DNA from: Pseudomonadota bacterium
GTDB lineage: Bacteria; Bdellovibrionota_C; UBA2361; SZUA-149; DAOLCO01
Direction: 5' to 3'
Length of the DNA: 64,000 bases
NCBI GenBank assembly: GCA_027487795.1
Contig: JAIYCX010000039.1
Span: 355,811 to 419,810, forward strand
This document shows positions 25,958-51,603 of the stretch, piece by piece (within the stretch, counting starts at the first letter, position 1; each line of letters opens with the position of its first letter). Under the pieces are notes generated by a model. The model did not search any database and had not been told where the DNA came from. It saw only the letters and a program-made list of their open reading frames with translations. The position numbers and the translations under genes are program-made.

Positions 25958-28900
25958 ATGGGGGAATTTAGTAATAAAAATGGGCAGGTTATAGCTCCTT
26001 CCTCTGACATTGAGGTAGGGAAAGACACGCCCTTAACTCTCCCTAGTGCGCCAGATAACAACCAAGATCAAAGTCAAAAAGACTCACTTAGCTTTCCCAA
26101 ATTAGACCCAAATGTCAAACTTAATACAAAATCAGAAAAACTCTTAGAAGAGCTTGCGATCTCCTTAGGCAATGCTAAATTCGACCGTGGCTTTAACATG
26201 ACCTTAGGCCAAGCCACTCACGATAATAATAACTACTCATCTCGACTACAAGTAGCAAATCAACAGATCTCAGATTTAGAACTAAAGATAAAATTTGAAC
26301 TAATAAAAAGTAACACTGCTCCCGAAGAACGAAAAGCCCAATTTGATAAGGTACAAAAATTTGCCGCTACGCGTGAGCATGAAGGACTGAATCAATTCCA
26401 AGCAGCAAAAACTGAGTACCAAAGAAGAACAGTTCAAGAAGCTGAAAAAGCAAGAAGAGAAGGAGGAGCAAGTTACGCACTAGGGGAGGTATTAACAAAA
26501 GCCACAAAATCAGCCTCTAGTCTTATTCCAACAACTAAAGAATCTGTAGAAATATTAAGCAGTGCAATATTCTCAGGCGGGGAAGGAATAGAAAAAGTAA
26601 GACTTAAAAACCTCTCACAAAGAGGAGAGTCCGTTCTTGGAACAACAGAAGAGTTTGCTAAAGGAAGTAATTCATCATTTAGCAATGCAGTCGCCCTAAT
26701 TGGAGTAGGCCTAGCCCCACTAGAGAAGGTATCAGGGATGACCCTAAACCCAGCTCTAGAGAGTGTAGACATTGGCCTTAGAGCCTCAAGAGTTGCAAGT
26801 TATAATACATTTTCGGGTAAGGATGCTCAGATTAATTACAGTGACTATAAAGAGCTAGAAGATAGAGAAGGTCTACTAAAAGCAGCGAAGCTTACTATGG
26901 ACGGTGCAAAGATAGCACTAGGAGCAGCAGCTCTTGGACCTAGCTCTTTGTCTCAATTAAGTCAGCCCATGTTAGTCTCGGGAGGGATGGGGTATGCCGG
27001 TGCCTTATCAGATGAGCTACTATCAAAAGAAGGTTTTAAATTAGGACGCTTTTTAGAGCATGGTTTTACTGGGACAGCAGATAGTTTTCTGTTCATGGGT
27101 GGGATTACGGGAATTGGGCATATAGCAGAGAAGACTGGAGCACTACATAAGATGTCATCTGTAAAGACATTCTTAAGTCTTGAGAATGGCGTTCAGAAGG
27201 AGAAGAAACTAGAGGCTATTCATAAAAGCTTTAAGGGACTAGAGATTACAAATGATGAGGCAAGGTTTGTAAGTAATCTAGTGGGTGAGATGAAAATGGG
27301 GCTAAGTGGGAAAATAGACCTGATTGATTCTCTACCAGATGTACAAAAAAGTCTGAATATTTTTTTAGAGAAGGTAGGAGATTTAAGCGCGCTAGAGATC
27401 TATGAGAAGCTTAAAAAGGATCCAGAGTATAGAAGGATGTTGGCTGGGGCAGTACTTAAGGTTGGAGTATCAGGGTTTGATGCTTTTGATGTTAAGAGCG
27501 GGACTAAGGGGATGGAGAGTCTGGAACAAACAGGAAGGATGGAAGATGGGAAGGAATTAGGGAAGTTTGTATCTTCTAAGAGTGGGAACTTAGAGAGTAA
27601 TGGGGACTTAGATTTTAGAAAAAATGGTGAGAGTATTTCAATTACCAATAGAGGAGAAGTTCCTATAGAAGTTCTTGCAGTTAATGGTAACGAATACAAA
27701 GGGTACTTTACACATACTAGAGATTTCTTTTATTTATTAGATAGAGAAGATCTTTCTTTAGCATACGGGGATATCTTAACATCAAGACAAGAAGTCGATC
27801 CAAACGGGACAGAGCATGTTGAATCATTTGTCGATAAAAATACAAAGCTAATTTTTTCTTATAAACAAAATAAAGAAAATTTATTACAAGAGAAGAAATG
27901 GAGAAGTTCTTTATTAGCACATGAGAATGAAAATAGGTCTGATATACTAGCTGGTAGAGCAGTTGATGAGAGGCGCTCATTTGAAACTCAGTTTCGATTT
28001 TTGGATAAGAATATAGATCAGGTTACTTTAAATAAAAGAATAAATGGTATCTTAGAGAGTAGTTATCTGGGGGCGGAAGGCTTGAGTTTGGCGGCAAGTA
28101 AAAAAGATAATATCGAATCAACTATCAATTTTCCTGAATTAGAATATATTTTAATTAATCTACAAGATCTAGTCAAAGAAGATAATTTTGAAGAAGGTGC
28201 TATTGAAAAACTGGACGATCTAATAACTCCTGGGAGTAGCAAACTAGTTGCACAGGGAATACTTACCTTAATAAGAAACTCTTCAAATCAATTATCTATT
28301 AAGATTTTAGACAACTTAGAGTTAATTTGCGCATATTTGATCTCATGTGATAACAACCAGATATCACGACCTATCTCTGGTATCATAGTATATGAAATCT
28401 TGCCGACGCTCTGTCAGGATACAAATGTTTCTCCATATATAAGATTAAAAGCAAAGACTATTCAAGAGAGACTAGTGTGCGAATCCTACTCATCATCTTT
28501 TGATCCTCGCTCAGTAAATAACGAAATAGGCGGCAAAGCTATATATGAAGATTCACCATTCTTTCCTGAAAGAGTTACTCTAAAAGATATCGCTAGAATT
28601 CGCAAATTAGCCAAGGATACTATATTTATCTGTAGAGAAGACGGCACTCCTGTTGCATTTAGTTATAGTTATGAAAACATTAATTCTGGAGACCCTAACT
28701 TATTGCAGCCTAGGCTATTAAAATCACTGAGAGATGAATTAAAACAGATAGAGCAAGGGGAACTTTCAAATCATATTTTACCTTGGGTAGCAATGGATCT
28801 TTATAGACATGAAGTATTATCTGGATTTTCTGAAGATTCTATAGAAGAATTTATGAACAGGATTATGCCTTCATCAATACCAAAAGAGATGATTACAGAG

Positions 28901-30487
28901 CTAGAGAAGGAATTATTTTATAAAAATATATATTTGCATAGGAGTATATATTCAAAATTAGTAATGATATTAGAAGAATTAGAAGATTCAAAAAAAGTCT
29001 TAACAGATGAAAGCAATGAAGCACCACTCGATAGCCAAAGTAATACCCAAGGTAGTATCGTAAATCCTTATTACTTCGATCCTAGTAAATATAATGAGCG
29101 AGAAAATCTTAAGGCACTGTATTTTAATGAAATGGATAATGAAAAGCTTAAACTAGTAAGACGTGAATTTGCAAATATTTTTCACGAAGAAAACTTTAAC
29201 GATGACCCGCTATATGACTTACTATCTTTAAATGAAGTTTATATATATTCCGATGATATGTACAATGCTCGTAATATTTGGGGAAATTACCTACGTAATG
29301 GACAAGAATCAAGCTTAAGCAAATTTAGGGCAGCTTTAAGAGAACGCTTAGATCACTTAATTTCATTAACAAACCAAACAAGAAGTACTTTCAATATACT
29401 AATGGATCTAGAACAAGAACGTTCGGAAGTATTCCCATTTAAAACTGAACATATTGAAAATCTATACTCCTTATTTCAAGAAGTACATCAAGGACCATTA
29501 AGATCTCATATTGAAGCTGAATTTGATATCGATCTTTCAGAAATAACTTTCAGATCACAGTTATATTTTCTTCAATTTTTACAAACTAGAGATACTGAAG
29601 GATTTATTGCATTTAAAAATGCTTTAAATAAATATCCTAATCAGAAATATAAAATTATAGAAGCCTTTGTTGCTAATGCAGAAAAGGCAACATATGCGAA
29701 ATATTTAATAGCTTTACCAAATAATTTACCAGAAACAATAGTTTCAAAAATCTTAGATAAATATCTCGAAATAATAGAATCCGCACAAGGGCTAGAAGAA
29801 CCACAAATACAAAAAGCCATCCGCTCAGCAAATCACTTTTTACATGCATATTCTATTAAAGCTAGATCTTCGGATAATCCAGAAAAAGTTATACTAAACC
29901 TAAACAAGCTCCATCATGAAATTCTAGCACTAGGAGTCCTAATAAGAGACTTAAGACGCACAGGTGCAATTAGTAATATTACTGATTTGCAAGGTCTTCA
30001 ATTTTCTTCCACATGCTCAAAAGATATTACAGATGATATTCGAAATGAAATAGCTGAACTATATCGCAGTAACTGGGAAAGTGATGCCTCATACAGTACA
30101 GAACATCGTGAAAAAGTTTTAGCAGCTCATGACAGGGCTATGAAGAATCCTGATACAAAGATCTACTCTTTTGAAACTAGCTCAGAAGTTCTAGCTTTTA
30201 TCAGAGTTGATTATCTTCCAGATGGCACAATTCACATGGGGGGATTGAATCAACGTCCAGAATTAGACCTTTCCTCTATAGGTATAACCTTACTCGAAGA
30301 AGTTATAAAACTAGAAAATCTTACTTCTGATATATTTATTGAAGTTACTAAAAAGAAAACTGAATTAATAGTTCAATATGAAAAGCTTGGATTTGTTATA
30401 GAAGCAGACAAAGTTATTATAAATTGGGAAGGAACAGGTGCGGATTTAGTAGTAATGCGCTTGCCTAGAGGTTCAATTATAAAGTAA
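25958..30487 (+). CDS. Very large (1509 aa) protein with C-terminal GNAT-type acetyltransferase domain; candidate secreted effector/toxin
   Basis: Long uninterrupted ORF with host-like AT-rich codon usage. No signal peptide. Ser/Asn/Gln-rich N-terminus. C-terminal GNAT motifs (...IHMGGLNQRPELDLSSIGITLLEEVI... and ...QYEKLGFVIE). Confidence 0.7.
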   Translation: MGEFSNKNGQVIAPSSDIEVGKDTPLTLPSAPDNNQDQSQKDSLSFPKLDPNVKLNTKSEKLLEELAISLGNAKFDRGFNMTLGQATHDNNNYSSRLQVANQQISDLELKIKFELIKSNTAPEERKAQFDKVQKFAATREHEGLNQFQAAKTEYQRRTVQEAEKARREGGASYALGEVLTKATKSASSLIPTTKESVEILSSAIFSGGEGIEKVRLKNLSQRGESVLGTTEEFAKGSNSSFSNAVALIGVGLAPLEKVSGMTLNPALESVDIGLRASRVASYNTFSGKDAQINYSDYKELEDREGLLKAAKLTMDGAKIALGAAALGPSSLSQLSQPMLVSGGMGYAGALSDELLSKEGFKLGRFLEHGFTGTADSFLFMGGITGIGHIAEKTGALHKMSSVKTFLSLENGVQKEKKLEAIHKSFKGLEITNDEARFVSNLVGEMKMGLSGKIDLIDSLPDVQKSLNIFLEKVGDLSALEIYEKLKKDPEYRRMLAGAVLKVGVSGFDAFDVKSGTKGMESLEQTGRMEDGKELGKFVSSKSGNLESNGDLDFRKNGESISITNRGEVPIEVLAVNGNEYKGYFTHTRDFFYLLDREDLSLAYGDILTSRQEVDPNGTEHVESFVDKNTKLIFSYKQNKENLLQEKKWRSSLLAHENENRSDILAGRAVDERRSFETQFRFLDKNIDQVTLNKRINGILESSYLGAEGLSLAASKKDNIESTINFPELEYILINLQDLVKEDNFEEGAIEKLDDLITPGSSKLVAQGILTLIRNSSNQLSIKILDNLELICAYLISCDNNQISRPISGIIVYEILPTLCQDTNVSPYIRLKAKTIQERLVCESYSSSFDPRSVNNEIGGKAIYEDSPFFPERVTLKDIARIRKLAKDTIFICREDGTPVAFSYSYENINSGDPNLLQPRLLKSLRDELKQIEQGELSNHILPWVAMDLYRHEVLSGFSEDSIEEFMNRIMPSSIPKEMITELEKELFYKNIYLHRSIYSKLVMILEELEDSKKVLTDESNEAPLDSQSNTQGSIVNPYYFDPSKYNERENLKALYFNEMDNEKLKLVRREFANIFHEENFNDDPLYDLLSLNEVYIYSDDMYNARNIWGNYLRNGQESSLSKFRAALRERLDHLISLTNQTRSTFNILMDLEQERSEVFPFKTEHIENLYSLFQEVHQGPLRSHIEAEFDIDLSEITFRSQLYFLQFLQTRDTEGFIAFKNALNKYPNQKYKIIEAFVANAEKATYAKYLIALPNNLPETIVSKILDKYLEIIESAQGLEEPQIQKAIRSANHFLHAYSIKARSSDNPEKVILNLNKLHHEILALGVLIRDLRRTGAISNITDLQGLQFSSTCSKDITDDIRNEIAELYRSNWESDASYSTEHREKVLAAHDRAMKNPDTKIYSFETSSEVLAFIRVDYLPDGTIHMGGLNQRPELDLSSIGITLLEEVIKLENLTSDIFIEVTKKKTELIVQYEKLGFVIEADKVIINWEGTGADLVVMRLPRGSIIK

Positions 30488-30489
30488 TG

Positions 30490-31764
30490 CTATAAATCAG
30501 TAATTGTATAAGAATCAGCAGATAATTGCTCTAATACCTTCTCTGATATCATTCCTTCTCTTACTGTAGAATATGGAATTAGAATTTTTGTATTTTTTTT
30601 GGTTTTTGTAATATTTGCAATACCTTCTCTCAGAATATTTATCTCATCATTATAGTTTAAAACTTTTCTATCTATAAGAAAGTTATGAATAAGTGGAACT
30701 TTTTTATCTAGTCTAAATTCTAGTAGAGCTAATATCTTATCATTCCAAATCGCTAGATGGCAGATACTACTATCTGGGATGATAAATTGATCAAGCATTT
30801 TATGTCTACCTTCTGTTACAAGTTTTTCAACAAGGTATTCTCTAGCTCTAAAAAACATATCACTAGTTTCACATTTACGAAGCATAAAACCAGTATTCTT
30901 AATATCAGGCATCGGTGCTTTATTTATTAATAAGAGTAAACTAGTAAGTTCTTCAACTTCATCTGTGGTAAAATTCTCAGCCGCATTAGCTAGTTTATCC
31001 GAAAATATTTCTATTAAATTATTGTAAATACTTAACCCATTATTAGTTAAAGAATAAATCTTCTGTCGTTTATCTCCCTTTGGTGAAAATTTACTAATAA
31101 TATTATTATTTTCAAAATCACTTAGGTATCTAGAAATCTTACTTGTAGAAAAAGGCAGGTTATCATCTAAATCTTTAAATCCTATCCCAGATTTGCTTTT
31201 TGCTATATCATTTAAAATTTGAAACTGAGTTAAGTTAAACTCATTTCCCATATAACTTTCACCTAACATACCTAAGGCAATTACTGCTCTTCTCTGTTCT
31301 GGTGCAAACAATCCTTCCCCTTCGCGAAGTTTTTCAGGGGGTGCTTTTAAGCCATTATTTAGTTTACGAAACAACTCAACCATCCGTAAATGTTCCCTTG
31401 GGGATAGTAAGCTGCAGCCTAGTTGTGAAATACGACTATTTAATTGATCTGCTTCAGTTAGAAGTTTTGTTCCATATTCAGTGAAAACTAAACGACGACC
31501 ACGTTTGTCTTCAAATGTTGTTTCCATACTAAGACAACCCATGCTTACTAGCTGATTTAAAAGTCTTGAAATCTTACTTTTTGAAATTCCTAGTAAATTA
31601 ACTAAGTCACTAGCAGATCTATTTGTATCGTATGCGAGGTGCGATAAAATTATGGATTCAACTGGAGACAAATCAGAAGGCAATAACATCCTAATAGCCC
31701 TCATTTTGCGCTGAGTAAGCAGGATTGAATCATGCAATTGAGTATATATATTTAGTGTAGCCAT
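30490..31764 (-). CDS. Transcriptional regulator with two MarR-type winged-HTH domains and an extra C-terminal domain
   Basis: Two repeats of the wHTH pattern (SDLVNLLGISKSKISRLLNQLVSMGC...RGRRL and FKDLDDNLPFSTSKISRYLSDFENNNII...DKRQKIYSLT). Confidence 0.6.
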   Translation of the reverse strand: MATLNIYTQLHDSILLTQRKMRAIRMLLPSDLSPVESIILSHLAYDTNRSASDLVNLLGISKSKISRLLNQLVSMGCLSMETTFEDKRGRRLVFTEYGTKLLTEADQLNSRISQLGCSLLSPREHLRMVELFRKLNNGLKAPPEKLREGEGLFAPEQRRAVIALGMLGESYMGNEFNLTQFQILNDIAKSKSGIGFKDLDDNLPFSTSKISRYLSDFENNNIISKFSPKGDKRQKIYSLTNNGLSIYNNLIEIFSDKLANAAENFTTDEVEELTSLLLLINKAPMPDIKNTGFMLRKCETSDMFFRAREYLVEKLVTEGRHKMLDQFIIPDSSICHLAIWNDKILALLEFRLDKKVPLIHNFLIDRKVLNYNDEINILREGIANITKTKKNTKILIPYSTVREGMISEKVLEQLSADSYTITDL

Positions 31765-31765
31765 G

Positions 31766-31960
31766 TTCGTATTTTATGATGATAGTTTTATAATAATAGT
31801 TTCATTCCGATATGCAATTATAAACTGGAAGTACTTAGTAATTATAAATCTATAAATAATATAGCTATTTAGACATTCTAAAACTCACATCAATAATCAT
31901 GATCAAATCAGTATAATACTACTAGATCGTCGGTGCGCGATGGGAATTGAAGCGCTGATA
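31766..31960 (+). repeat. Promoter-like repeat A, copy 1 (roughly 195 bp, 55-bp core identical to the copy at 33480-33534)
   Basis: taatagtttcattcc...aatcagtataatactactagatcgtcggtgcgcgatgggaattgaagcgctgata. The core contains an extended -10-like cagTATAAT. Confidence 0.6.
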
Positions 31961-32230
31961 TCTATGGCTCTTCCTAATGTTGAGTTCTTTATATTATTAT
32001 TTGGGTATAAGATTTTTCTGCTGTTCTCTCTTCGGCTGCATTAGAGATGGTTTAATCCCTTGCTCTGGCCGTCTCTTATTCAATTATAAATTTACTTTTC
32101 ATAATTAATTTCAAACAAAGTTAATAATGAAGAGAGAAAGAATAAATTAAGGTTATTGTTTTAAGTGGTTTTAATAAGGTTAGTTATTTACTTGAGCATA
32201 TCTAATCCATATTTTTTATTACGATAAGAT

Positions 32231-32312
32231 ATTCCGTTGAAAATAATATTTGCATTTCATAGAGTTTGAAATATTTTAATTCTATGAAATGCGATTTGCA
32301 TTATCCGGAATG
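32231..32312. promoter_or_regulatory. Nested imperfect palindrome (candidate operator or large hairpin) in the leader of the exonuclease cassette
   Basis: ATTCCG...GCATTTCATAG-(19 nt)-CTATGAAATGC...CGGAAT. Direct repeat CCGTTGAAA at both flanks. Confidence 0.25.
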
Positions 32313-32372
32313 TCCTACCGTTGAAAGGATACGCTATTGAGGGCATTTAATTTGCCCTAGAAAGAAAGTATT

Positions 32373-32891
32373 ATGAAAATTTTTTCAATCGACGCCGAAG
32401 TCGATGGACTGTACGGACCATCGTTCGCCATTGCTGTCACCGTCCGCCAGGACGGTGTAGAAATTGCGAGCTTCCAAGGAAGGATACCTGATGACGGAAT
32501 CAAGGATGGGTGGGTGAGGGAGAAAGTTCTCCCAGCCCTGAGTGACATGAAAGTCACGCATCAGACCACCGAGGCCCTCGAGGAGGCCTTCTGGGCCTTC
32601 TGGAGTGATCAAAAGGAAGGTTCCACCGTGATTGCCCACTGTGGCAGTCCGGTTGAGTCAGGACTCTTTCGGCGATGCGTCGAGAGAAATTTCGCCGAAC
32701 GACAATGGAACGGACCATTCCCACTTCATGAAGTGGGAACACTGCTCCTCGCAGTTGGGGCGGACCCCGGCAGCGTTGACAACTACAACAAAAGGCATGG
32801 CCTAGTCGTTCCCTTTGCAGGGGTGGCGCACCACCCCATGTACGATGCGGCTGCTGCCGCGGTTGCTTGGGAACACGCTATCGCTAAGTAA
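32373..32891 (+). CDS. GC-rich small DEDDh-type (DnaQ/Orn-like) 3'-5' exonuclease, probably horizontally acquired
   Basis: Exo I motif FSIDAEVDGLYG and Exo III motif HHPMYDAAAAA. GC far above the surrounding DNA. Confidence 0.6.
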   Translation: MKIFSIDAEVDGLYGPSFAIAVTVRQDGVEIASFQGRIPDDGIKDGWVREKVLPALSDMKVTHQTTEALEEAFWAFWSDQKEGSTVIAHCGSPVESGLFRRCVERNFAERQWNGPFPLHEVGTLLLAVGADPGSVDNYNKRHGLVVPFAGVAHHPMYDAAAAAVAWEHAIAK

Positions 32892-32940
32892 AGTAAAAAG
32901 CTCTGCTTAGAATAAAAAACTAAGCAGGAGTTAAAATAAC

Positions 32941-32992
32941 TAAACCCACTCAGCCTTGATTAAAGTTAATCTAATTCGCTGAGTGGGTTTTT
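32941..32992 (+). terminator. Rho-independent terminator after the exonuclease gene
   Basis: AAACCCACUCAGC-(loop)-GCUGAGUGGGUUUUU. A second smaller hairpin GCUCUGCUUAG...CUAAGCAGGAG lies at 32900-32930. Confidence 0.5.
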
Positions 32993-33023
32993 CAAAAGGT
33001 ATATAATTATTCTTTCTCTTTCT

Positions 33024-33137
33024 TTATTATCTTTACCTTGACTCCACCCCATTTTGCGATTTCCCATCGCGAGCTTATTTCTTAGCCTAACATAATACGA
33101 AAGTTGTATGTATCTTAGTTTCATCAAAGTGGGGTGG
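33024..33137. repeat. MITE-like 114-bp element with 23-bp terminal inverted repeats, copy 1
   Basis: TACCTTGACTCCACCCCATTTTG ... CAAAGTGGGGTGGGCTGAAGGTA. Second copy at 34693-34806. Confidence 0.5.
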
Positions 33138-33159
33138 GCTGAAGGTAGTATCAAAAAAT

Positions 33160-33355
33160 ATTAAGCACTATATATCCTAATCAGTTCGCTTTCACTATCC
33201 AACCAATTATACTTATCATTAATAGCATCAAGCCCATTTTTACCTAGGCTGATTCTTTTATCTATGTAGGAATAAGAATTCTCTATACACCTTGCCGCAT
33301 ATTCCAGATTACCGGATTCAAAAACGTATCTACAGTTTGTTTTCAGTTCATTATC
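33160..33355 (-). pseudogene. Diverged in-frame remnant (64 codons plus stop) of the C-terminus of the GT4 glycosyltransferase gene at 34820-35998
   Basis: Reverse-complement translation ...NCRYVFESGNLEYAARCIENSYSYIDKRISLGKNGLDAINDKYNWLDSESELIRIYSA* versus the intact gene ...NCGYVFESGSPESAARYIEKAFLSKEERDLLGQNGLKAINDKYNWSISEKELIKIYSA*. Same position relative to the MITE-like element. Confidence 0.55.
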
Positions 33356-33534
33356 ATAATTTTAGAATAATAGTTTCATTCCAGTATGTAAACATATACT
33401 GAAAATACTCAACGATAATAAATCTCTCACTAATATAATAACTTAGATATCCTAAAACTCAAATCAATAATTCCGATTAAATCAGTATAATACTACTAGA
33501 TCGTCGGTGCGCGATGGGAATTGAAGCGCTGATA
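33340..33534 (+). repeat. Promoter-like repeat A, copy 2
   Basis: Same architecture as 31766-31960. Identical 55-bp core at 33480-33534 containing the -10-like TATAAT. Confidence 0.6.
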
Positions 33535-33970
33535 ATCAAAAGGCTGAGAAAGACGGGTAGAGAGTTTGATAAGGTTAAGGCTGCAAGTACTAAGTTAAGA
33601 AAGCAGACCTTACTAAATGTTAAAATTCTAGAGAACAAGCAGTGTTAAAAAACACAGCAGGGGTTCTTTAGAACAAAGGTTTTGTTAAACGTTTGCAAAC
33701 TCAAAAAACATCTTTCTTCTCTATAAAGAAGAATCAATAAATTCTTTTTTATAGAGGATTAAAAATCCTGAGTTTGTGTTCTTTATATTATTATTTGGGT
33801 AGAAGAAAGCATAATTGCTCTTGATAAACTGAGTCACTAAAAGTTTTATAAACTAAGAGACTATAAAAAAACAAAGTGAAAAGTTTAACAAGAGCGGTGA
33901 TTTTTGGTTTTGGTACTCTGCTTTTGAAGAGTACCGAGGTTTTATCGCTCGTAAGAGCGAAGGAGAAAAA

Positions 33971-34561
33971 ATGAGAAAGAAAAAAGGAACCCTGCTTGCT
34001 TATCGCAAGCAGGGTGGTTTTATAACAGAGATTCAATACGGAGAGCACGGTGCTCTTTTTATCGAAAAAGTTGAATGCAGAACTGTTTCAGTTCTGCATT
34101 ATGGTTGGTATCAAGATGGCGGTTATAGGCCGTCTGTCAGATATGATGTCTCACGGACAGCTATGATGTGCCACCATCGGTGGCTGGAAACGGGGTACAA
34201 TTGGACCCCAAAACCAGTGGCCTTTGCAAGGGAGCATTGCGAGGATGTCGAATTATCAATTGCTACCGGCGATGGATATTTCGATTTGCAGAATAGAAAA
34301 GTCTCCGGCTGGTGGCTTTCCGTAAAGGAAGCTACCTTGGAAAGGAACTCTTTTAGAAGTTCCCGCTTTGAGCGGGATTACTTCAAAAGAAATTACCCAA
34401 GAGGTAATTGCCATAATTGCGGATTCGACTTGCAAGAACACTTCCAAAAAATCCGCCAAGATGGCGGATATGTCTACCGACTGGAGGAGGGTTCTTCAAC
34501 CTTCCTGTTTGATTGGGAGGCACATGACCGACCAAGGGTAATGAATACCCTTCTCCCTTAA
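33971..34561 (+). CDS. GC-rich hypothetical protein with Cys/His clusters (possible zinc-binding), probably horizontally acquired
   Basis: 196-aa ORF with about 50% GC. CHHRW, CEDVEL and CHNCGF clusters. Strong AGGAG Shine-Dalgarno. Hairpin-rich 5' leader. Confidence 0.5.
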   Translation: MRKKKGTLLAYRKQGGFITEIQYGEHGALFIEKVECRTVSVLHYGWYQDGGYRPSVRYDVSRTAMMCHHRWLETGYNWTPKPVAFAREHCEDVELSIATGDGYFDLQNRKVSGWWLSVKEATLERNSFRSSRFERDYFKRNYPRGNCHNCGFDLQEHFQKIRQDGGYVYRLEEGSSTFLFDWEAHDRPRVMNTLLP

Positions 34562-34596
34562 AGTTCTCCTAGAAGGGATATAGGCTGAACTGTTTA

Positions 34597-34640
34597 TGAG
34601 CAGTGACAGCCAACGAATGTTGTATGTCACTGCTCTTTTA
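34597..34640 (+). terminator. Rho-independent terminator after the GC-rich hypothetical gene
   Basis: GAGCAGUGACA-(loop)-UGUCACUGCUC followed by UUUUAAAAAU. Confidence 0.5.
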
Positions 34641-34692
34641 AAAATATTTAGGATATGGAAGTCTACTATTCTTTCACTATCTCGATATTTAC

Positions 34693-34806
34693 TACCTTGA
34701 CTCCACCCCATTTTGCGATTTCCCATCGCGAGCAAATTTCTCGGCCTAACATATGACCATAGTCAAATGTATCTTAGCTTCATCAAAGTGGGGTGGACTG
34801 AAGGTA
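34693..34806. repeat. MITE-like 114-bp element with 23-bp terminal inverted repeats, copy 2 (immediately downstream of the GT4 stop)
   Basis: TACCTTGACTCCACCCCATTTTG ... CAAAGTGGGGTGGACTGAAGGTA. Confidence 0.5.
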
Positions 34807-34819
34807 GTATTCAGATATA

Positions 34820-35998
34820 TTAAGCACTATAAATCTTAATCAATTCTTTCTCACTAATCGACCAATTATATTTATCATTAATAGCTTTAAGCCCATTTTG
34901 GCCAAGTAAATCTCTTTCTTCTTTTGATAGAAATGCTTTTTCTATATACCTTGCCGCTGATTCCGGACTACCCGATTCAAAAACGTATCCACAGTTTGTC
35001 TCAAGTACAATTCTTTTTAAAGGTTCTGCATCTGAAACTAACACTGGCTTAGCAAGTGCCATATATTGAAAAAGTTTATTTGGTATGGTGGTATTTATGA
35101 ATTCATTATTTAAATGAGGAACTAAGCATAGATCTGAGTTATATATTAACGTGGGCAACTCACTAAACGAAACCCAACCAGAAAAACTTATACAATTTTC
35201 TAATTTAAGTTTTGTAACAAGTGCTTGCAGTACGCTAAGATAATTTCCTGAACCTACAATTACTAATTTTATAGAATTATTTCCGCGATTACTTAGAATA
35301 TGAATAGCATTGATTATATCTTCTAATCCGCGCTCTATCGTAATCACTCCAGCATATAAAAGTACAAACTCTTTTTGCTTTTCTTTCTTTAACAAAGTAT
35401 TGTCTGTCATAAACTGCTCTAAATCCACAGTATTACTAACAACAAATATTTTATCTGCTGCAATTCCTTGCTTAATTAATCTATCTGCTTGTTCCTCAAC
35501 AACCAAGATAATTTTATCAAATACCTTAACAGAAAACCATTCAACTAATTTTGCTATTCGATAATTTTTAAAAACTCTCGTTTTCCAATCAACCTTACCC
35601 CAGCCCTTTAGTGCTTCTGGATAATTTTCCCACATGTCTAAAACTATAGGGATTCTTAAAATTCTTCCTACAAACCATACTGCTGGAGCTAGTGCGATAT
35701 CTACAACTTGAAGTGCTTGAATTTTATTTTCTATACAAAAAGATACTAATTGAAAAATCCAAAGTGGATTAAAGAAAATTGGAAATTTTAGAATTTTATT
35801 TACTGTTCTACTTTTGAAAGTTGGTATTAGTCTTCTTACATTAATACCATTGTATATTTCATTTGATAGTTTGAAATCACCATAGTTATTACAAAATACG
35901 AAAATTTCATGCCCTGCTGATATAAGGCTTTTTGCTTCTTTTTCTATTCTTTCAGCTGGAGGGAACTCTCCTCCTTGGTATACAATACATATTTTCAT
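34820..35998 (-). CDS. Family 4 (GT-B fold, GT1-type) glycosyltransferase
   Basis: C-terminal EGFGL-type region (…AKPVLVSDAEPLKRIVLETNCGYVFESGSPES…). 392 aa. Confidence 0.75.
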   Translation of the reverse strand: MKICIVYQGGEFPPAERIEKEAKSLISAGHEIFVFCNNYGDFKLSNEIYNGINVRRLIPTFKSRTVNKILKFPIFFNPLWIFQLVSFCIENKIQALQVVDIALAPAVWFVGRILRIPIVLDMWENYPEALKGWGKVDWKTRVFKNYRIAKLVEWFSVKVFDKIILVVEEQADRLIKQGIAADKIFVVSNTVDLEQFMTDNTLLKKEKQKEFVLLYAGVITIERGLEDIINAIHILSNRGNNSIKLVIVGSGNYLSVLQALVTKLKLENCISFSGWVSFSELPTLIYNSDLCLVPHLNNEFINTTIPNKLFQYMALAKPVLVSDAEPLKRIVLETNCGYVFESGSPESAARYIEKAFLSKEERDLLGQNGLKAINDKYNWSISEKELIKIYSA

Positions 35999-49368: not shown

Positions 49369-51270
49369 TTATAGTCTTGTTTGAATGCCAAAGATTATAG
49401 AAGCTCCGTAAGTTCCGTATCCTGGTATTTCTTGATAATCCTTATCTAATAAGTTCTGAACTCTGATATATGGAGTCAAATAATCAAAACCAGAATATTC
49501 AGTGACTGCATTAACTAAAATATAGTCATCCATATTTTTACCGTCAGAGTCTATTCTATCGGCGATACCAATCACATCTGTTCTTAGTACTAAGTTATCA
49601 ACTGGCAGTACTCGTAGTGACAATCCACCCTGATGACGAGCTCTTCTTGGTAAGACTGAATTCGAATCTCTATTTTCCGAGTCTAAATAAGTATAACTTA
49701 AGGTAGGCTCTACATATTGACTAACTTTAAAAGAAACTTTTGATTCTATACCAGTAGCATATGCACTTTGTATATTCTCTGGAGCATTAGTTAATACGTC
49801 AAAAGAAATTAAATCATCAAAGTTGTTATAAAAAAAAGTTATGTCCGATTTAAAATATGAAGTAGTTGTTTCAAATCCTACATCATAAGATTGACTCTTC
49901 TCAGCATCAAGATTTGGATTAGAAAATCCTGGAAAATACAAATCACTCAGCGTTGGTGCTCTATAACCAGTGCCATAACTTGTATGCACTCTTGATGATA
50001 CAGCTTCAAAACTTTGTGATGCTGTTAATCTGTAAGTAAAGATATTTCCAAACGAAGAATCAAAATCTTCTCTAGCCCCAGCTGTTAAGTTAGTTCCTTC
50101 AAATGGAGAAAACTTTTGATCAGCAAATATGCTATTTATATCCCTACTTTTATTAAATTGCTCTAATGAATTCCCATCGTTTCTTTCATAAGAATAACCA
50201 AGTAAAGTTGTTATATCATCAGAAAATTTAAAAACGTTCTGTTGTTGAACATTATAATTTGTAGATTTAAAAGCATAATTATTAAAGCTAGTTTCTGGAT
50301 CTAATCCCTTAAAATAATCAGAATTATAAGCTAGAACTAAAGTGGGATTAAAAAATATTTTTTCTTCTTTTTCTACTTGACCAAACTTAAGACTAGACTG
50401 TACAGACTCTCTTCTTTGTCTGTAATCTAATGCATCTATAGAGCCAGTAGCAAAATCAAAACCATCTAACTCAGAATTACTTTTAAGATATCTAAAAGTT
50501 GGGGTTATTTCTACATCTTCAATTGTAGCAGTTGCCTTCCCTACTACGCTAGCTGCGGAATATGGATCATTCTCTGGATTATTGTTGGAAGTTTCTGCTA
50601 CAGATGTACCGTGTAGCGAAAACCATGAAGTTCCAATAAAGCCTTTTAGATTTTCAGTTCCTCCTGTAGTGGTAGCTTGATATCTCTGCTCACCATATGA
50701 TCCAGCCTCTGTATTAAGAGTAAGAGATTCTTCATCTGATGGGCCTTCAGTAATAATATTTATTACCCCGCCTAAAGCATCACTTCCATAAAGTGTACTT
50801 TGTGCTCCCTTTAAAACTTCTACTTTTTTAACACCAAGTGAGTTAAAATCAGCGAAATCAAATTGACCACTTAAATTTTCATTAATAGGAATACCATCTA
50901 CCATTACTAGACTTTGACTTGATCCTGCACCTCTTAAAAACACACTGGTAGTTCTACCTGGACCTCCAGATTGAGTTACTTGTAGGCCAGGTACACTTCT
51001 TAGTGTATCAGCCAAAGTAAAATCACGTCTTTCTTTTATTTCCTGTGATTGAACTAAATTATAAGTTGATCCAACTTCTTTAGTTTCCTCTTCGAATCTG
51101 TTAGCAGTAATTATCATTTCGGGAATAGACTCTTCTGAGGCCCCTGAAAGTGTCTCCGCTACACTAAAGTCAGCTAATATTAATTGTGATAAAGGCAAAG
51201 AAGTAAATGCGCAGGCACTAAACATTCTCGCCAATGTTTTTTTGACGTTCATTCCGATTCTCCAGTACAT
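49369..51270 (-). CDS. btuB: TonB-dependent receptor, BtuB-like (cobalamin uptake inferred from the upstream riboswitch)
   Basis: Plug motif VMVDGIPINENLSG...VEVLKGAQSTLYGSDALGGVINI. Beta-barrel. Signal peptide. B12 riboswitch immediately upstream. Confidence 0.7.
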   Translation of the reverse strand: MYWRIGMNVKKTLARMFSACAFTSLPLSQLILADFSVAETLSGASEESIPEMIITANRFEEETKEVGSTYNLVQSQEIKERRDFTLADTLRSVPGLQVTQSGGPGRTTSVFLRGAGSSQSLVMVDGIPINENLSGQFDFADFNSLGVKKVEVLKGAQSTLYGSDALGGVINIITEGPSDEESLTLNTEAGSYGEQRYQATTTGGTENLKGFIGTSWFSLHGTSVAETSNNNPENDPYSAASVVGKATATIEDVEITPTFRYLKSNSELDGFDFATGSIDALDYRQRRESVQSSLKFGQVEKEEKIFFNPTLVLAYNSDYFKGLDPETSFNNYAFKSTNYNVQQQNVFKFSDDITTLLGYSYERNDGNSLEQFNKSRDINSIFADQKFSPFEGTNLTAGAREDFDSSFGNIFTYRLTASQSFEAVSSRVHTSYGTGYRAPTLSDLYFPGFSNPNLDAEKSQSYDVGFETTTSYFKSDITFFYNNFDDLISFDVLTNAPENIQSAYATGIESKVSFKVSQYVEPTLSYTYLDSENRDSNSVLPRRARHQGGLSLRVLPVDNLVLRTDVIGIADRIDSDGKNMDDYILVNAVTEYSGFDYLTPYIRVQNLLDKDYQEIPGYGTYGASIIFGIQTRL

Positions 51271-51294
51271 CCCCCTCGGGACTCTAGATTTATA

Positions 51295-51505
51295 TTAGCC
51301 AATAATGCCTGGTATCCTGGCTTGCAGTCATCCTACTAAGAGACAATCCTTCCCAAAATTTGCTCTATTTAAATAATAAATAGGAAAAAATCAGTGGACA
51401 TGAATAGAGTCTCTATTCGTCGTGCATACAGTTGCGGGGCAGCGAAAGATTTTAACTTTACTTCCCAGAGAGAATATTAATACAGTTAATATTAGTACTC
51501 TCTAT
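51295..51505 (-). promoter_or_regulatory. Cobalamin (AdoCbl) riboswitch in the btuB leader
   Basis: Minus-strand RNA contains GGGAAGUAAAGUUAAAAUCUUUCGCUGCCCCGCAACUGUA (consensus GGGAA..GGUG.AAAUCC...GUCCCGCAACUGUA). The downstream B12 box is AAGCCAGGAUACCAGGCA (consensus AGYCAGGAGACCUGCC). Confidence 0.6.
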
Positions 51506-51603
51506 TCATAAAATTTTTATAATCTTATGAAAAACATAATTGGTGCTAGTTAAAATTAACTAGCATAGAATAACTAACACTATATATATTTATGGTAAAG
51601 TAC

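What the first reader, a model, noticed from the sequence alone, without database searches (positions are those of the whole stretch)
32373..32891. Foreign GC-rich stand-alone DEDDh 3'-5' exonuclease as cassette cargo
The 172-aa ORF has Exo I (FSIDAEVDGL) and Exo III (HHPMYDA) motifs of the DnaQ/oligoribonuclease-like fold. Its GC is far above that of the host genome. It has its own repeat-derived promoter, a palindromic operator-like leader and a terminator. Small exonucleases carried on mobile cassettes can act in anti-phage defence, anti-defence or nucleotide-signal degradation. Its role in a cassette array inside an LPS locus is unclear.
Basis: partly seen in the sequence, partly recalled or inferred. 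Interest (0 to 1): 0.55.

Follow-up and report, generated by a model that had tools for sequence, protein, structure and literature searches.

The report
Stand-alone CRISPR-family DEDD exonuclease gene
A small, clearly imported gene in a low-GC Oligoflexia-like bacterium encodes an exonuclease of the same, still uncharacterised family as the helper enzyme thought to switch off the SAM-AMP alarm signal of type III CRISPR immunity; several of its closest relatives sit on phage contigs, so it may be a captured immune-signal-degrading (anti-CRISPR-like) enzyme.

Summary
The ORF at 32373-32891 is real. It is intact, under purifying selection, and strikingly foreign: GC 55.7% and GC3 58%, against 33% and 20% for the other 47 ORFs. 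No Pfam, NCBIfam, PADLOC or PDB sequence model detects it. An AlphaFold model (pLDDT 96.9) nevertheless has the DnaQ/RNase T fold. The catalytic set D7, E9, E95, H153 and D158 is invariant in the 42-sequence alignment.

The new result is the family. It is a homolog (37-43% identity, E 1e-31 to 1e-45) of the "DEDD" nuclease encoded next to CorA, Cmr and Cas10 genes in type III CRISPR loci. That nuclease is the proposed, untested SAM-AMP phosphodiesterase.

The window protein belongs to a stand-alone branch (at least 53% identity). None of 18 such loci contains CRISPR genes, against 46 of 64 for more distant relatives. Members of this branch lie in phage contigs at native GC, and as GC-rich imports in CPR and Oligoflexia chromosomes, often beside a wHTH regulator. 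In one locus the gene overlaps by 4 nt an NrN-like (CorA-associated DHH) gene.

The "cassette array" is a tandem duplication of the local frame, not an integron.

Best reading: a captured signal-degrading or short-oligonucleotide-degrading phosphodiesterase. The substrate is untested.

The parts
32373..32891 (+). 172-aa DEDDh-type 3'-5' exonuclease/phosphodiesterase gene (end includes the stop). Catalytic residues D7, E9 (Exo I), E95 (Exo II, Glu), H153, D158 (Exo III, H-x4-D).
32228..32314 (+). Palindromic leader / candidate operator, 59-145 nt upstream of the ATG. Near-perfect 17-nt inner arms at 32250-32266 and 32277-32293.
   Evidence: z -5.7. Function as an operator is inferred.
32237..32265 (+). 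Sigma-70-like promoter match TTGAAA-17-TAGAGT (9/12) overlapping the left arm of the palindrome.
   Evidence: consensus match only
32328..32372 (+). Small hairpin that includes the purine-rich stretch just before the ATG.
   Evidence: part of the MFE fold
32899..32932 (+). First hairpin after the stop codon.
32942..32996 (+). 13-bp hairpin followed by a T run: intrinsic-terminator-like.
   Evidence: z -6.6 for 32885-33000
30490..31764 (-). Divergently oriented 424-aa regulator with two winged-helix (MarR/TrmB-type) domains. Host-like GC (31.5%). Candidate repressor of the gene.
   Evidence: Syntenic counterpart in L002. TrmB-like counterparts in CPR loci.
31773..32012 (.). Left repeats of unit 1: D2 31773-31960 and D3 31972-32012. 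Copies in unit 2 at 33347-33534 and 33766-33806 (83-88% identity).
33008..33340 (.). Right repeat D1 of unit 1 (80% identical to 34667-34999). It holds a ~120-nt hairpin element (33033-33152) and an in-frame relic of the glycosyltransferase 3' end (33161-33340, minus strand).
33347..34999 (.). Second unit of the duplicated frame. It carries the unrelated orphan ORF 33971-34561 (+), 196 aa, GC 45.7%, with its own terminator-like hairpin. Its right end is the true 3' end of the glycosyltransferase gene 34820-35998 (-).

Best explanation
The gene encodes a small, metal-dependent DEDDh-type 3'-5' phosphodiesterase. It belongs to a Pfam-less family whose members in type III CRISPR loci are the 'DEDD' accessory nuclease found next to CorA, Cmr and Cas10 genes. 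That nuclease is proposed to hydrolyse the signal SAM-AMP to SAM plus AMP.

Shown here: the fold; an intact catalytic set (D7, E9, E95 and D158 for two metal ions, H153 as general base, by analogy with RNase T and Pol III epsilon); homology to the CRISPR-locus nucleases; purifying selection; and foreign composition.

Inferred: it removes the 3'-terminal nucleotide from SAM-AMP-like conjugates or from very short oligonucleotides, and so quenches a nucleotide alarm signal. The window copy belongs to a stand-alone, horizontally spreading branch. That branch sits at native GC in phage and phage-like contigs, where such an enzyme would act as an anti-CRISPR. It has been captured repeatedly in variable regions of CPR and Oligoflexia chromosomes.

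In this window the gene is a self-contained transcription unit: a promoter-like site overlapped by an 87-nt palindrome, then two hairpins after the stop. It lies next to a divergent double winged-helix regulator that plausibly represses it. The neighbouring 'cassette' structure arose by tandem duplication or unequal recombination of the frame between the regulator gene and the glycosyltransferase gene.
For: Fold: AF2 with 42 homologs gives pLDDT 96.9 and pTM 0.92. Foldseek PDB hits are RNase T, PolC/epsilon exonuclease, DinG exonuclease, ExoX, TREX1, RNase AS and Cas2-DnaQ. BFVD hits are DnaQ/DEDDh exonucleases.

Catalytic and other conserved residues: D7, E9, E95, H153 and D158 are invariant in the 42-sequence alignment. 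D7, E9 and E95 are 100% in both the CRISPR-linked and stand-alone groups; H153 and D158 are 96% and 100%. Both groups also share G12-L13-Y14-G15, W47, W74, P93-V94, F99, R110, P115 and P117.

CRISPR link:
- 37% identity, E 7e-31, to the S. mitis protein lying between Cmr6/NprR and Cas1, with CorA downstream.
- 43% identity, E 1e-45, to the Tistrella pTM1 protein next to Cas10 and RAMP genes.
- 46 of 64 loci (>= 6 kb) with relatives at <= 50% identity carry CorA, Cmr6, Cas1 or Cas10.
- Literature: a DEDD nuclease next to corA in S. oralis is proposed as a SAM-AMP off-switch (PMC10600005, PMC11229360).

Stand-alone branch:
- 0 of 18 loci with relatives at >= 53% identity carry those genes (Fisher p 1.6e-8).
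- Phage carriage: L061 with terminase and portal, and the same two genes in L062 by homology; a 51,254-bp contig seen in >= 20 samples with ERF and Cpn10; Fusobacterium phage phiFN37, 33% identity, in the block of + strand genes about 1.8 kb past the divergently oriented CI-like repressor gene.
- Gene GC equals contig GC in those phage contigs, but exceeds the flanks by 0.10-0.26 in most CPR and Oligoflexia loci.
- In the Komeilibacteria locus L009 a 57%-identical homolog overlaps by 4 nt an upstream NrN-like gene (PADLOC DHH_CorA, E 3e-33), with no CorA or Cmr nearby.

Selection: dN/dS 0.06-0.13.

Local unit. Duplication.
Against: No member of this family, including the CRISPR-locus DEDD, has been assayed or solved (in PMC10600005 only NrN and the lyase were tested). 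The substrate assignment is therefore an inference resting on another inference.

The window holds no CorA, Cas or CRISPR array and no phage or integrase hallmark among the neighbours scanned. Nothing here shows that a SAM-AMP signal exists for the enzyme to meet.

The NrN-like pairing is a single locus.

Only 1 of 50,697 deposited phage genomes carries a relative.

The regulator-operator link is untested, and no second copy of the half-site exists in the window.

The window protein itself hits no defence or anti-defence model.
Confidence: 0.5

Rival explanations
1. A general-purpose small exonuclease: a nanoRNase/oligoribonuclease-like or RNase T/RNase AS-like enzyme for RNA or DNA end trimming and nucleotide recycling. 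It would have no specific link to immune signalling. The CRISPR-locus relatives would simply be one recruitment of a broader housekeeping-type family.
For: The closest structural neighbours are RNase T, Pol III epsilon, ExoX, TREX1 and Rv2179c/RNase AS. 5 of 42 homologs weakly hit PF16473, Rv2179c-like. Many stand-alone copies sit among ordinary chromosomal genes such as FolD, PGA_cap, radical SAM and GrpE/DnaK. CPR and Oligoflexia genomes are reduced and might import such functions.
Against: Housekeeping genes are not expected to keep GC3 of 58-76% in genomes with far lower GC (GC3 about 20% in this window), nor to sit in variable arrays. The distribution is patchy and includes phage contigs. 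72% of the more distant relatives with enough flank lie in type III CRISPR loci. Non-catalytic residues (Y14, W47, W74, R110) are shared with the CRISPR-locus group. One homolog overlaps an NrN-like gene.
Confidence: 0.25
2. A component or effector of an unrecognised anti-phage defence system. It would be encoded in a defence-island-like variable region controlled by the adjacent winged-helix regulator.
For: The region is variable and foreign. DUF3800 (PADLOC PDC-M04A, E 1e-14) is the neighbour in L056, L003, L005 and L006. A P-loop protein and a 297-aa ORF with an HDIGK motif (read by eye; no Pfam hit) follow the gene in the syntenic L002 locus. DEDD-type diDNases associate with islands and defence systems (PMC11706625).
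Against: No conserved partner gene accompanies the exonuclease across loci apart from the regulator. There is no PADLOC hit for the protein itself. It occurs singly in phage-like contigs among small co-directional ORFs lacking Pfam hits, which fits counter-defence better than defence.
Confidence: 0.12
3. An integron-type or other site-specific gene cassette, as 'cassette array' implies. The ORF would have been inserted by a recombinase at repeat-defined attachment sites.
For: Two adjacent units share flanks and carry unrelated GC-rich cargo. Palindromic elements lie between ORFs here and in CPR arrays.
Against: The shared flanks are the regulator's upstream region and a relic of the glycosyltransferase 3' end, that is, duplicated host sequence. 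No RYYYAAC/GTTRRRY pair brackets the palindromes (by eye). No integrase turned up among the neighbours scanned. The gene has its own promoter-like site and terminator. Similarity to other loci ends at the ORF borders. CPR arrays have mixed gene orientation.
Confidence: 0.05

Closest known systems
CorA-associated 'DEDD' nuclease of type III-B CRISPR-Cas (Chi et al. 2023, PMC10600005; Hoikkala et al. 2024, PMC11229360)
   Same: Clear sequence homology over the whole length (37% identity to S. mitis, 43% to the Cas10-adjacent Tistrella protein). Same size (about 170 aa). Same Exo I/II/III residues, including the Exo II glutamate, and the same non-catalytic conserved residues.
   Different: Not in a CRISPR locus: no CorA, Cmr or Cas genes in 64 kb, and 0 of 18 loci for its whole branch. 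It is foreign in composition and linked to a wHTH regulator or to phage genomes. The activity of the CRISPR DEDD itself is only proposed, not measured.
NrN (CRISPR-associated DHH phosphodiesterase that cleaves SAM-AMP)
   Same: Proposed to do the same job. An NrN-like gene directly precedes, and overlaps by 4 nt, a 57%-identical homolog in L009.
   Different: Unrelated fold (DHH/DHHA1 versus DnaQ-like).
Viral signal-degrading anti-CRISPRs: AcrIII-1 ring nuclease, and the candidate AcrIIIB4 phage SAM-AMP lyase (PMC12255297)
   Same: Small stand-alone enzyme with cellular CRISPR-locus homologs and phage-borne copies. The logic would be the same: destroy the second messenger.
   Different: Different folds and chemistry (hydrolase versus lyase or ring nuclease). 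No activity or anti-CRISPR test exists. The window copy is chromosomal, not in a recognisable phage.
RNase T / Pol III epsilon / oligoribonuclease / Rv2179c (RNase AS): the DEDDh superfamily
   Same: Same fold (TM 0.6-0.7), with DxE and H-x4-D motifs.
   Different: 11-20% identity in the structural alignments. No Pfam exonuclease model is matched. Exo II carries Glu instead of Asp.
diDNases (NrnC-like DEDDy dinucleases of genomic islands; PMC11706625)
   Same: A small DEDD nuclease found in islands and MGE contexts with a suspected immunity role.
   Different: A different subfamily (DEDDy, NrnC-like). No sequence match of the family profile to any PDB chain at E <= 10.

Membership tests
DEDDh (DnaQ-like) 3'-5' exonuclease superfamily | Exo I motif D-x-E at the end of strand 1 | tested here: met
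   D7 and E9 are invariant in the 42-sequence alignment and 100% in both locus groups.
DEDDh (DnaQ-like) 3'-5' exonuclease superfamily | Exo II acidic residue at the start of the helix after strand 4 | tested here: met
   E95 in SPVESGLF is invariant, but it is Glu rather than the usual Asp. Its position after strand 84-88 and at helix 94-105 comes from the model.
DEDDh (DnaQ-like) 3'-5' exonuclease superfamily | Exo III motif H-x4-D | tested here: met
   H153 and D158 (HHPMYD) are invariant in the 42-sequence alignment; in the locus set they are 100% in the stand-alone group and 96% in the CRISPR-linked group.
DEDDh (DnaQ-like) 3'-5' exonuclease superfamily | RNase H-like alpha/beta fold | tested here: met
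   AF2 pLDDT 96.9. Foldseek probability 1.0 and TM 0.6-0.7 to RNase T, epsilon, ExoX and TREX1.
DEDDh (DnaQ-like) 3'-5' exonuclease superfamily | Match to a curated sequence model of the superfamily | tested here: not met
   No Pfam or NCBIfam hit for the protein. Only 5 of 42 homologs hit PF16473, weakly (E >= 0.008).
CorA-associated DEDD nuclease of type III CRISPR | Sequence homology to the nuclease encoded in CorA/Cmr loci | tested here: met
   BLASTP E 7e-31 (S. mitis locus with Cmr6, Cas1 and CorA) and 1e-45 (Tistrella locus with Cas10 and RAMP genes).
CorA-associated DEDD nuclease of type III CRISPR | Encoded next to corA and type III cas genes | tested here: not met
   No CorA, Cmr6 or Cas1 match and no repeat array in the 64-kb window. 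0 of 18 loci in its >= 53% identity branch have them. The rest of the genome could not be read.
CorA-associated DEDD nuclease of type III CRISPR | Hydrolysis of SAM-AMP | not testable with these tools
   Needs biochemistry. It has not been reported even for the CRISPR-locus enzyme in the papers read (PMC10600005, PMC13294483).
Anti-CRISPR of the signal-degrading kind | Encoded by a virus or mobile element | tested here: inconclusive
   Relatives at 56-67% identity lie in phage contigs and one at 33% in phage phiFN37. The window copy lies in a chromosomal variable region with no phage hallmark among the genes scanned.
Anti-CRISPR of the signal-degrading kind | Inhibits CRISPR immunity | not testable with these tools
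   Needs a plasmid-challenge or phage-challenge assay.
Integron gene cassette | attC site with paired core sites at the cassette end, an integrase nearby, and a promoterless ORF | tested here: not met
   The repeats are duplicated host flanks that include a glycosyltransferase relic. No core-site pair was seen by eye. No integrase among scanned neighbours. The gene has its own promoter-like site and terminator.
Rv2179c-like / RNase AS (PF16473) | Match to PF16473 above the curated threshold | tested here: not met
   The window protein has no hit. Structural similarity only: 4hvj and 6s0m, TM 0.62-0.68.

The most novel reading that the evidence does not exclude
The stand-alone branch of this family may be a new class of phage- and MGE-borne anti-CRISPR enzymes: SAM-AMP (or related conjugate) phosphodiesterases that disarm CorA-type type III signalling. 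Copies would have been captured again and again in regulator-anchored arrays of foreign, GC-rich small genes in episymbiotic CPR bacteria and in Oligoflexia/Bdellovibrionota-like bacteria. Those lineages, or their phages, would then maintain a repertoire of counter-defence genes. The persistently un-ameliorated GC would reflect continual re-import from a phage gene pool of about 55-58% GC.
Probability: 0.25. Interest if true: 0.8.

Novelty: new variant of a known kind. Interest (0 to 1): 0.6.

Why it matters
The CorA-associated DEDD nuclease is a named but uncharacterised player in SAM-AMP signalling. There is no structure, no assay and no Pfam model for it.

This window shows that its family is large (about 1,200 clusters at 50% identity). 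It also shows a distinct, horizontally moving, CRISPR-independent branch in phage contigs and in CPR and Oligoflexia chromosomes. That gives concrete candidates for a second kind of anti-SAM-AMP enzyme besides the phage lyase AcrIIIB4, and small soluble proteins on which to test substrate specificity.

It also exposes an undescribed genomic architecture. A large GNAT-ended protein and a winged-helix regulator are followed by an array of foreign GC-rich genes with palindromic leaders. This is shared between two very different lineages, CPR and Oligoflexia, which are described as living on or preying on other bacteria (my knowledge, not tested here).

Tried and rejected
- Sequence models for the ORF: Pfam, NCBIfam, PHROGs and PADLOC gave nothing usable.
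- PDB by sequence: a single sequence gave only spurious ankyrin-repeat and AcrIIC1 hits. The family profile gave nothing. The CRISPR-locus relatives gave nothing.
- Single-sequence AlphaFold was useless (pLDDT 45.6). This wasted one of the two jobs.
- Rfam on the flanks and on the whole window found nothing in the locus.
- Integron reading: rejected.
- ORF2 homologs: none among 5.8 billion proteins, so it gives no context.
- Fusion partners of longer family members and L009 neighbours: no Pfam hits.
- Cultured phages: only phiFN37 carries a relative. Plasmids: only Tistrella pTM1.
- Second copy of the operator half-site: none above chance.
- The 11-mer CGCGATGGGAA flanks both units in inverted orientation. 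I judged it not significant once the duplication is accounted for (my estimate is about 0.3 by chance).
- Host identity could only be narrowed to Oligoflexia/Bdellovibrionota-like, through Asd homologs. Exact-sequence look-ups returned no names. The 565-kb source contig could not be fetched, so presence of a type III system elsewhere in the genome is unknown.
- diDNase (NrnC-like) membership was considered and rejected, since there is no sequence relation (PMC11706625).
Full report
OBSERVATION

The ORF at 32373..32891 (+) is present as described: 172 aa, ATG start, FSIDAEVDGL at residues 4-13 and HHPMYDA at 153-159.

Its composition is far outside the local distribution. It has GC 55.7% and GC3 58.4%. 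The other 47 ORFs of at least 150 aa have GC 33.4 +/- 2.7% and GC3 20.1 +/- 2.9%. The GC step coincides with the ORF ends.

It is a real gene:
- 141 homologs in a word-indexed search of 5.8 billion proteins.
- 1212 clusters at 50% identity in an exhaustive profile search, 888 of them at E <= 1e-10.
- dN/dS of 0.06-0.13 against three homologs, with dS saturated.
- An independent Logan contig (L001), 100% identical, spans both AT-rich flanks, so the GC island is not a chimeric join.

FOLD AND ACTIVE SITE

No sequence library recognises the protein. Pfam, NCBIfam, PHROGs, PADLOC and the PDB by sequence all failed, including a PDB search with the family profile. Only 5 of 42 homologs touch PF16473 (Rv2179c-like), at E >= 0.008.

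With a 42-sequence alignment (A1), AlphaFold gives pLDDT 96.9 and pTM 0.92. The model has the strand-strand-strand-helix-strand-helix order of DnaQ-like exonucleases.

Foldseek against the PDB returns RNase T, PolC and epsilon proofreading domains, the DinG exonuclease domain, ExoX, TREX1, ERI3, Rv2179c/RNase AS and a Cas2-linked DnaQ domain. Probability is 1.0, TM 0.6-0.7, identity 11-20%. The viral library gives DnaQ/DEDDh exonucleases.

D7, E9, E95, H153 and D158 are invariant in the 42-sequence alignment. In the larger set of locus-encoded homologs, D7, E9 and E95 are 100% in both groups, and H153 and D158 are 96-100%. The Exo II acid is glutamate rather than aspartate. H153-x4-D158 is the DEDDh signature.

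WHAT FAMILY

Relatives at 31-46% identity in Streptococcus mitis, S. oralis and S. cristatus, and in many Clostridia, lie inside type III-B CRISPR loci.

In S. mitis SK95 the order is Cmr6, an NprR-like TPR protein, the 170-aa homolog, Cas1, and further on CorA. PADLOC scores are Cmr6 6e-35, Cas1 5e-60 and CorA 3e-55. In Clostridia the homolog is typically sandwiched directly between Cmr6 and CorA. This is the "DEDD" nuclease that Chi et al. drew next to corA in S. oralis. They proposed it, like NrN, as an off-switch for SAM-AMP (PMC10600005; also PMC11229360 and PMC13294483).

The window protein aligns with the S. mitis protein at 37% identity over 163 residues, E 7e-31. It aligns with a Tistrella mobilis pTM1 protein, which sits beside Cas10 and RAMP genes, at 43% over the full length, E 1e-45.

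Beyond the catalytic residues, both groups share G12-L13-Y14-G15, W47, W74, P93-V94, F99, R110, P115 and P117. That argues for a similar substrate pocket.

No member of the family has a solved structure. In the papers I could read, only NrN and the SAM-AMP lyase were assayed, not DEDD.

A STAND-ALONE, MOBILE BRANCH

I pooled 151 loci from species genomes, viral contigs, metagenomes and look-ups. I screened them with seed-derived HMMs. The result is a sharp split:
- Distinct proteins at least 53% identical to the window protein, with at least 6 kb of locus: 0 of 18 have CorA, Cmr6, Cas1 or Cas10 nearby.
- Those at 50% identity or less: 46 of 64 do (Fisher p 1.6e-8).

A neighbour-joining tree groups the window with an Oligoflexia MAG, CPR bacteria (Saccharibacteria, Paceibacterota, Moraniibacteriota, Komeilibacteria), a gammaproteobacterial MAG and viral contigs.

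Phage carriage is real:
- L061 has a terminase large subunit and a portal protein within 2-5 kb. L062 carries homologs of both.
- P0031 (67% identity) lies in a 51,254-bp contig recovered at the same length from at least 20 samples. It sits among small co-directional ORFs, upstream of Cpn10 and an ERF recombinase.
- L058 and L156 look alike: many small co-directional ORFs with no Pfam hits.
- The cultured Fusobacterium phage phiFN37 has a 33%-identical copy with all catalytic residues. It lies in a block of + strand genes about 1.8 kb past the divergently oriented CI-like repressor gene.

In these phage or phage-like contigs the gene's GC equals the contig's (0.54-0.58). In most CPR and Oligoflexia loci it exceeds the flanks by 0.10-0.26. 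A gene pool of about 55-58% GC is therefore a plausible source.

In the Komeilibacteria locus L009 the homolog (57% identity) overlaps by 4 nt an upstream gene. That gene matches PADLOC's "DHH_CorA" model, that is NrN, the enzyme shown to cleave SAM-AMP, at E 3e-33. No CorA or Cmr gene is nearby. Two unrelated putative SAM-AMP degraders in one operon outside a CRISPR locus is the strongest single hint for the signal-quenching reading. It is one locus only.

LOCAL ANATOMY

The host is Oligoflexia/Bdellovibrionota-like. The best named Asd homologs are Oligoflexia at 69% identity and Bdellovibrionales at 62-63%.

To the left lie housekeeping genes, a 1509-aa protein with no Pfam hit, and a divergent 424-aa regulator with two winged-helix domains. 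To the right lies a polysaccharide cluster: two GT1 genes, a Polysacc_synt_3 flippase and PMT_2.

The same neighbourhood exists in the Oligoflexia MAG L002: large protein, MarR-like gene (-), exonuclease (+), further foreign genes, and a GT1 gene (-). There the flanking proteins are only 26-27% identical to the window's, while the exonuclease is 74% identical.

The gene looks like its own transcription unit:
- A 9/12 sigma-70-like site at 32237-32265.
- That site is overlapped by an 87-nt palindrome at 32228-32314 (z -5.7).
- A small hairpin reaches the ATG.
- After the stop come hairpins at 32899-32932 and 32942-32990, the second ending in a T run (z -6.6).

That the palindrome is the operator of the adjacent regulator is inference. 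No second half-site exists in the window.

THE "CASSETTE ARRAY"

Two units, 31773-33340 and 33347-34999, share flanks at 80-88% identity but carry unrelated cargo. The left flank is the regulator's upstream region. The right flank holds a ~120-nt hairpin element and the 3' end of the glycosyltransferase gene.

In unit 1 that 3' end is an in-frame relic of the last ~60 codons: KTNCRYVFESG...ELIRIYSA* against ETNCGYVFESG...ELIKIYSA*. This is the signature of a tandem duplication, or of unequal recombination between two alleles of the locus. It is not site-specific cassette insertion.

DNA similarity to all homolog loci stops at the ORF borders, 32369-32884. The second cargo ORF (33971-34561) is an orphan.

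A WIDER PATTERN

This part is unexplained. In 9 of the 18 close loci a TrmB-like (CPR) or MarR-like (Oligoflexia) gene lies nearby. Where positions were tabulated it sits 0.9-3.6 kb upstream and divergent, often preceded by a large GNAT-ended protein. The exonuclease is one of several small GC-rich ORFs separated by AT-rich spacers.

In L003 two different ORFs share a 207-nt leader at 94% identity. That leader contains a 74-nt palindrome 110-180 nt upstream of the ATG, an arrangement like the window's although the sequences are unrelated.

Neighbours include DUF3800 (PADLOC PDC-M04A), MJ1673, a small GNAT, and in one locus a weak Gad2-like hit.

Between the window and L002, dS is about 1.6, yet both genes keep GC3 near 0.6. 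The window's own GC3 background is about 0.2. Vertical inheritance with amelioration does not fit. Repeated import or selection for GC is needed.

MECHANISM AND CONFIDENCE

Shown: DnaQ fold, intact DEDDh-type site, homology to the CRISPR-locus DEDD nucleases, purifying selection, foreign origin, phage-borne close relatives, a self-contained unit next to a regulator, and a duplication origin for the repeats.

Inferred: two-metal hydrolysis of the 3'-terminal phosphodiester of SAM-AMP-like conjugates or very short oligonucleotides; signal quenching; anti-CRISPR use in phages; repression by the neighbouring regulator.

I put 0.5 on the signal or short-oligonucleotide phosphodiesterase reading as a whole. 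The rivals are:
- generic exonuclease, about 0.25;
- defence component, 0.12;
- integron-like cassette, 0.05.

Against my reading: nothing in the family has been assayed; the window has no CorA, Cas genes or array; there is no phage hallmark among the scanned neighbours; and only one deposited phage carries a relative.

NOVELTY

This is a new variant of a known kind. The kind, a DEDD accessory nuclease of CorA-type type III CRISPR, is named in the literature. A large CRISPR-independent, horizontally moving branch was not found in the papers I searched. Neither was its capture in regulator-anchored arrays in CPR and Oligoflexia. The search library is limited, so absence there is not proof of absence.

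Noticed in passing
window 33161-33340 (-): In-frame relic of the last ~60 codons of a GT1 glycosyltransferase, paralogous to the true gene end at 34820-34999. It marks the junction of a tandem duplication or unequal recombination.
   Followed up: yes
window 33033-33152 and 34692-34811: Conserved ~120-nt hairpin element with 23-26-nt arms (TACCTTGACTCCACCCCATTTTG / CAAAGTGGGGTGGRCTGAAGGTA). It lies just 3' of the glycosyltransferase stop on the minus strand. The arms are conserved and the loop diverges between the copies. z -4.9, no Rfam match. It could be a terminator or a small RNA.
   Followed up: partly
window 33971-34561 (+): A 196-aa ORF, GC 45.7% (also foreign-looking), with internal GC-rich hairpins and a terminator-like hairpin downstream. 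No homolog at all among 5.8 billion proteins and no family hit.
   Followed up: partly
window 25958-30487 (+) and 30490-31764 (-); L002, L003/L056, L009, L054: A conserved pair: a very large protein with a GNAT-like C-terminus (no Pfam hit in the window copy), followed by a divergent winged-helix regulator. In both Oligoflexia and CPR genomes this pair precedes arrays of small, GC-rich, foreign ORFs with palindromic leaders. I found no description of this architecture.
   Followed up: partly
L009 6781-8522 (Candidatus Komeilibacteria): An NrN-like DHH gene (PADLOC DHH_CorA, E 3e-33) overlaps by 4 nt the exonuclease homolog, followed by a DEAH-type helicase. No CorA or Cmr genes within the 14-kb locus.
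   Followed up: partly
L152/L153 (Logan contigs, 51,254 bp): A likely complete phage genome, seen at identical length in at least 20 samples. It carries a 67%-identical homolog among small co-directional ORFs upstream of Cpn10 and an ERF recombinase. Gene GC matches the contig GC.
   Followed up: partly
L154 562-2691: An exonuclease homolog (64% identity) is followed by a 261-aa unknown ORF and an ORF with a weak Pfam Gad2 (anti-Gabija) hit. This hints that some of these islands hold counter-defence genes.
   Followed up: no
window 32718-32739: A perfect 22-bp palindrome (TTCCCACTTCATGAAGTGGGAA) inside the exonuclease ORF, encoding the conserved FPLHEVG. It is imperfect in L002 and is possibly just codon choice.
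   Followed up: no
window ORF versus L002/L003/L004 orthologs: Synonymous sites are saturated (dS 1.6-3.5), yet GC3 stays at 58-76% in low-GC hosts (GC3 about 20% in this window). There is no amelioration, which implies repeated import or selection for GC-rich codons.
   Followed up: partly
L071 (Tistrella mobilis plasmid pTM1, 396069-410521): A 43%-identical homolog lies divergently next to a Cas10-like gene and three RAMP genes, with a tyrosine recombinase and a type I R-M system beside it. No CorA was detected within 7 kb, so the CRISPR link is not limited to CorA-adjacent loci.
   Followed up: partly
window 51290-51514 (-) and 22465-22548 (-): A cobalamin riboswitch (56 bits) upstream of the 633-aa ORF 49369-51270, and a tRNA-Leu(GAG) gene.
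   Followed up: no
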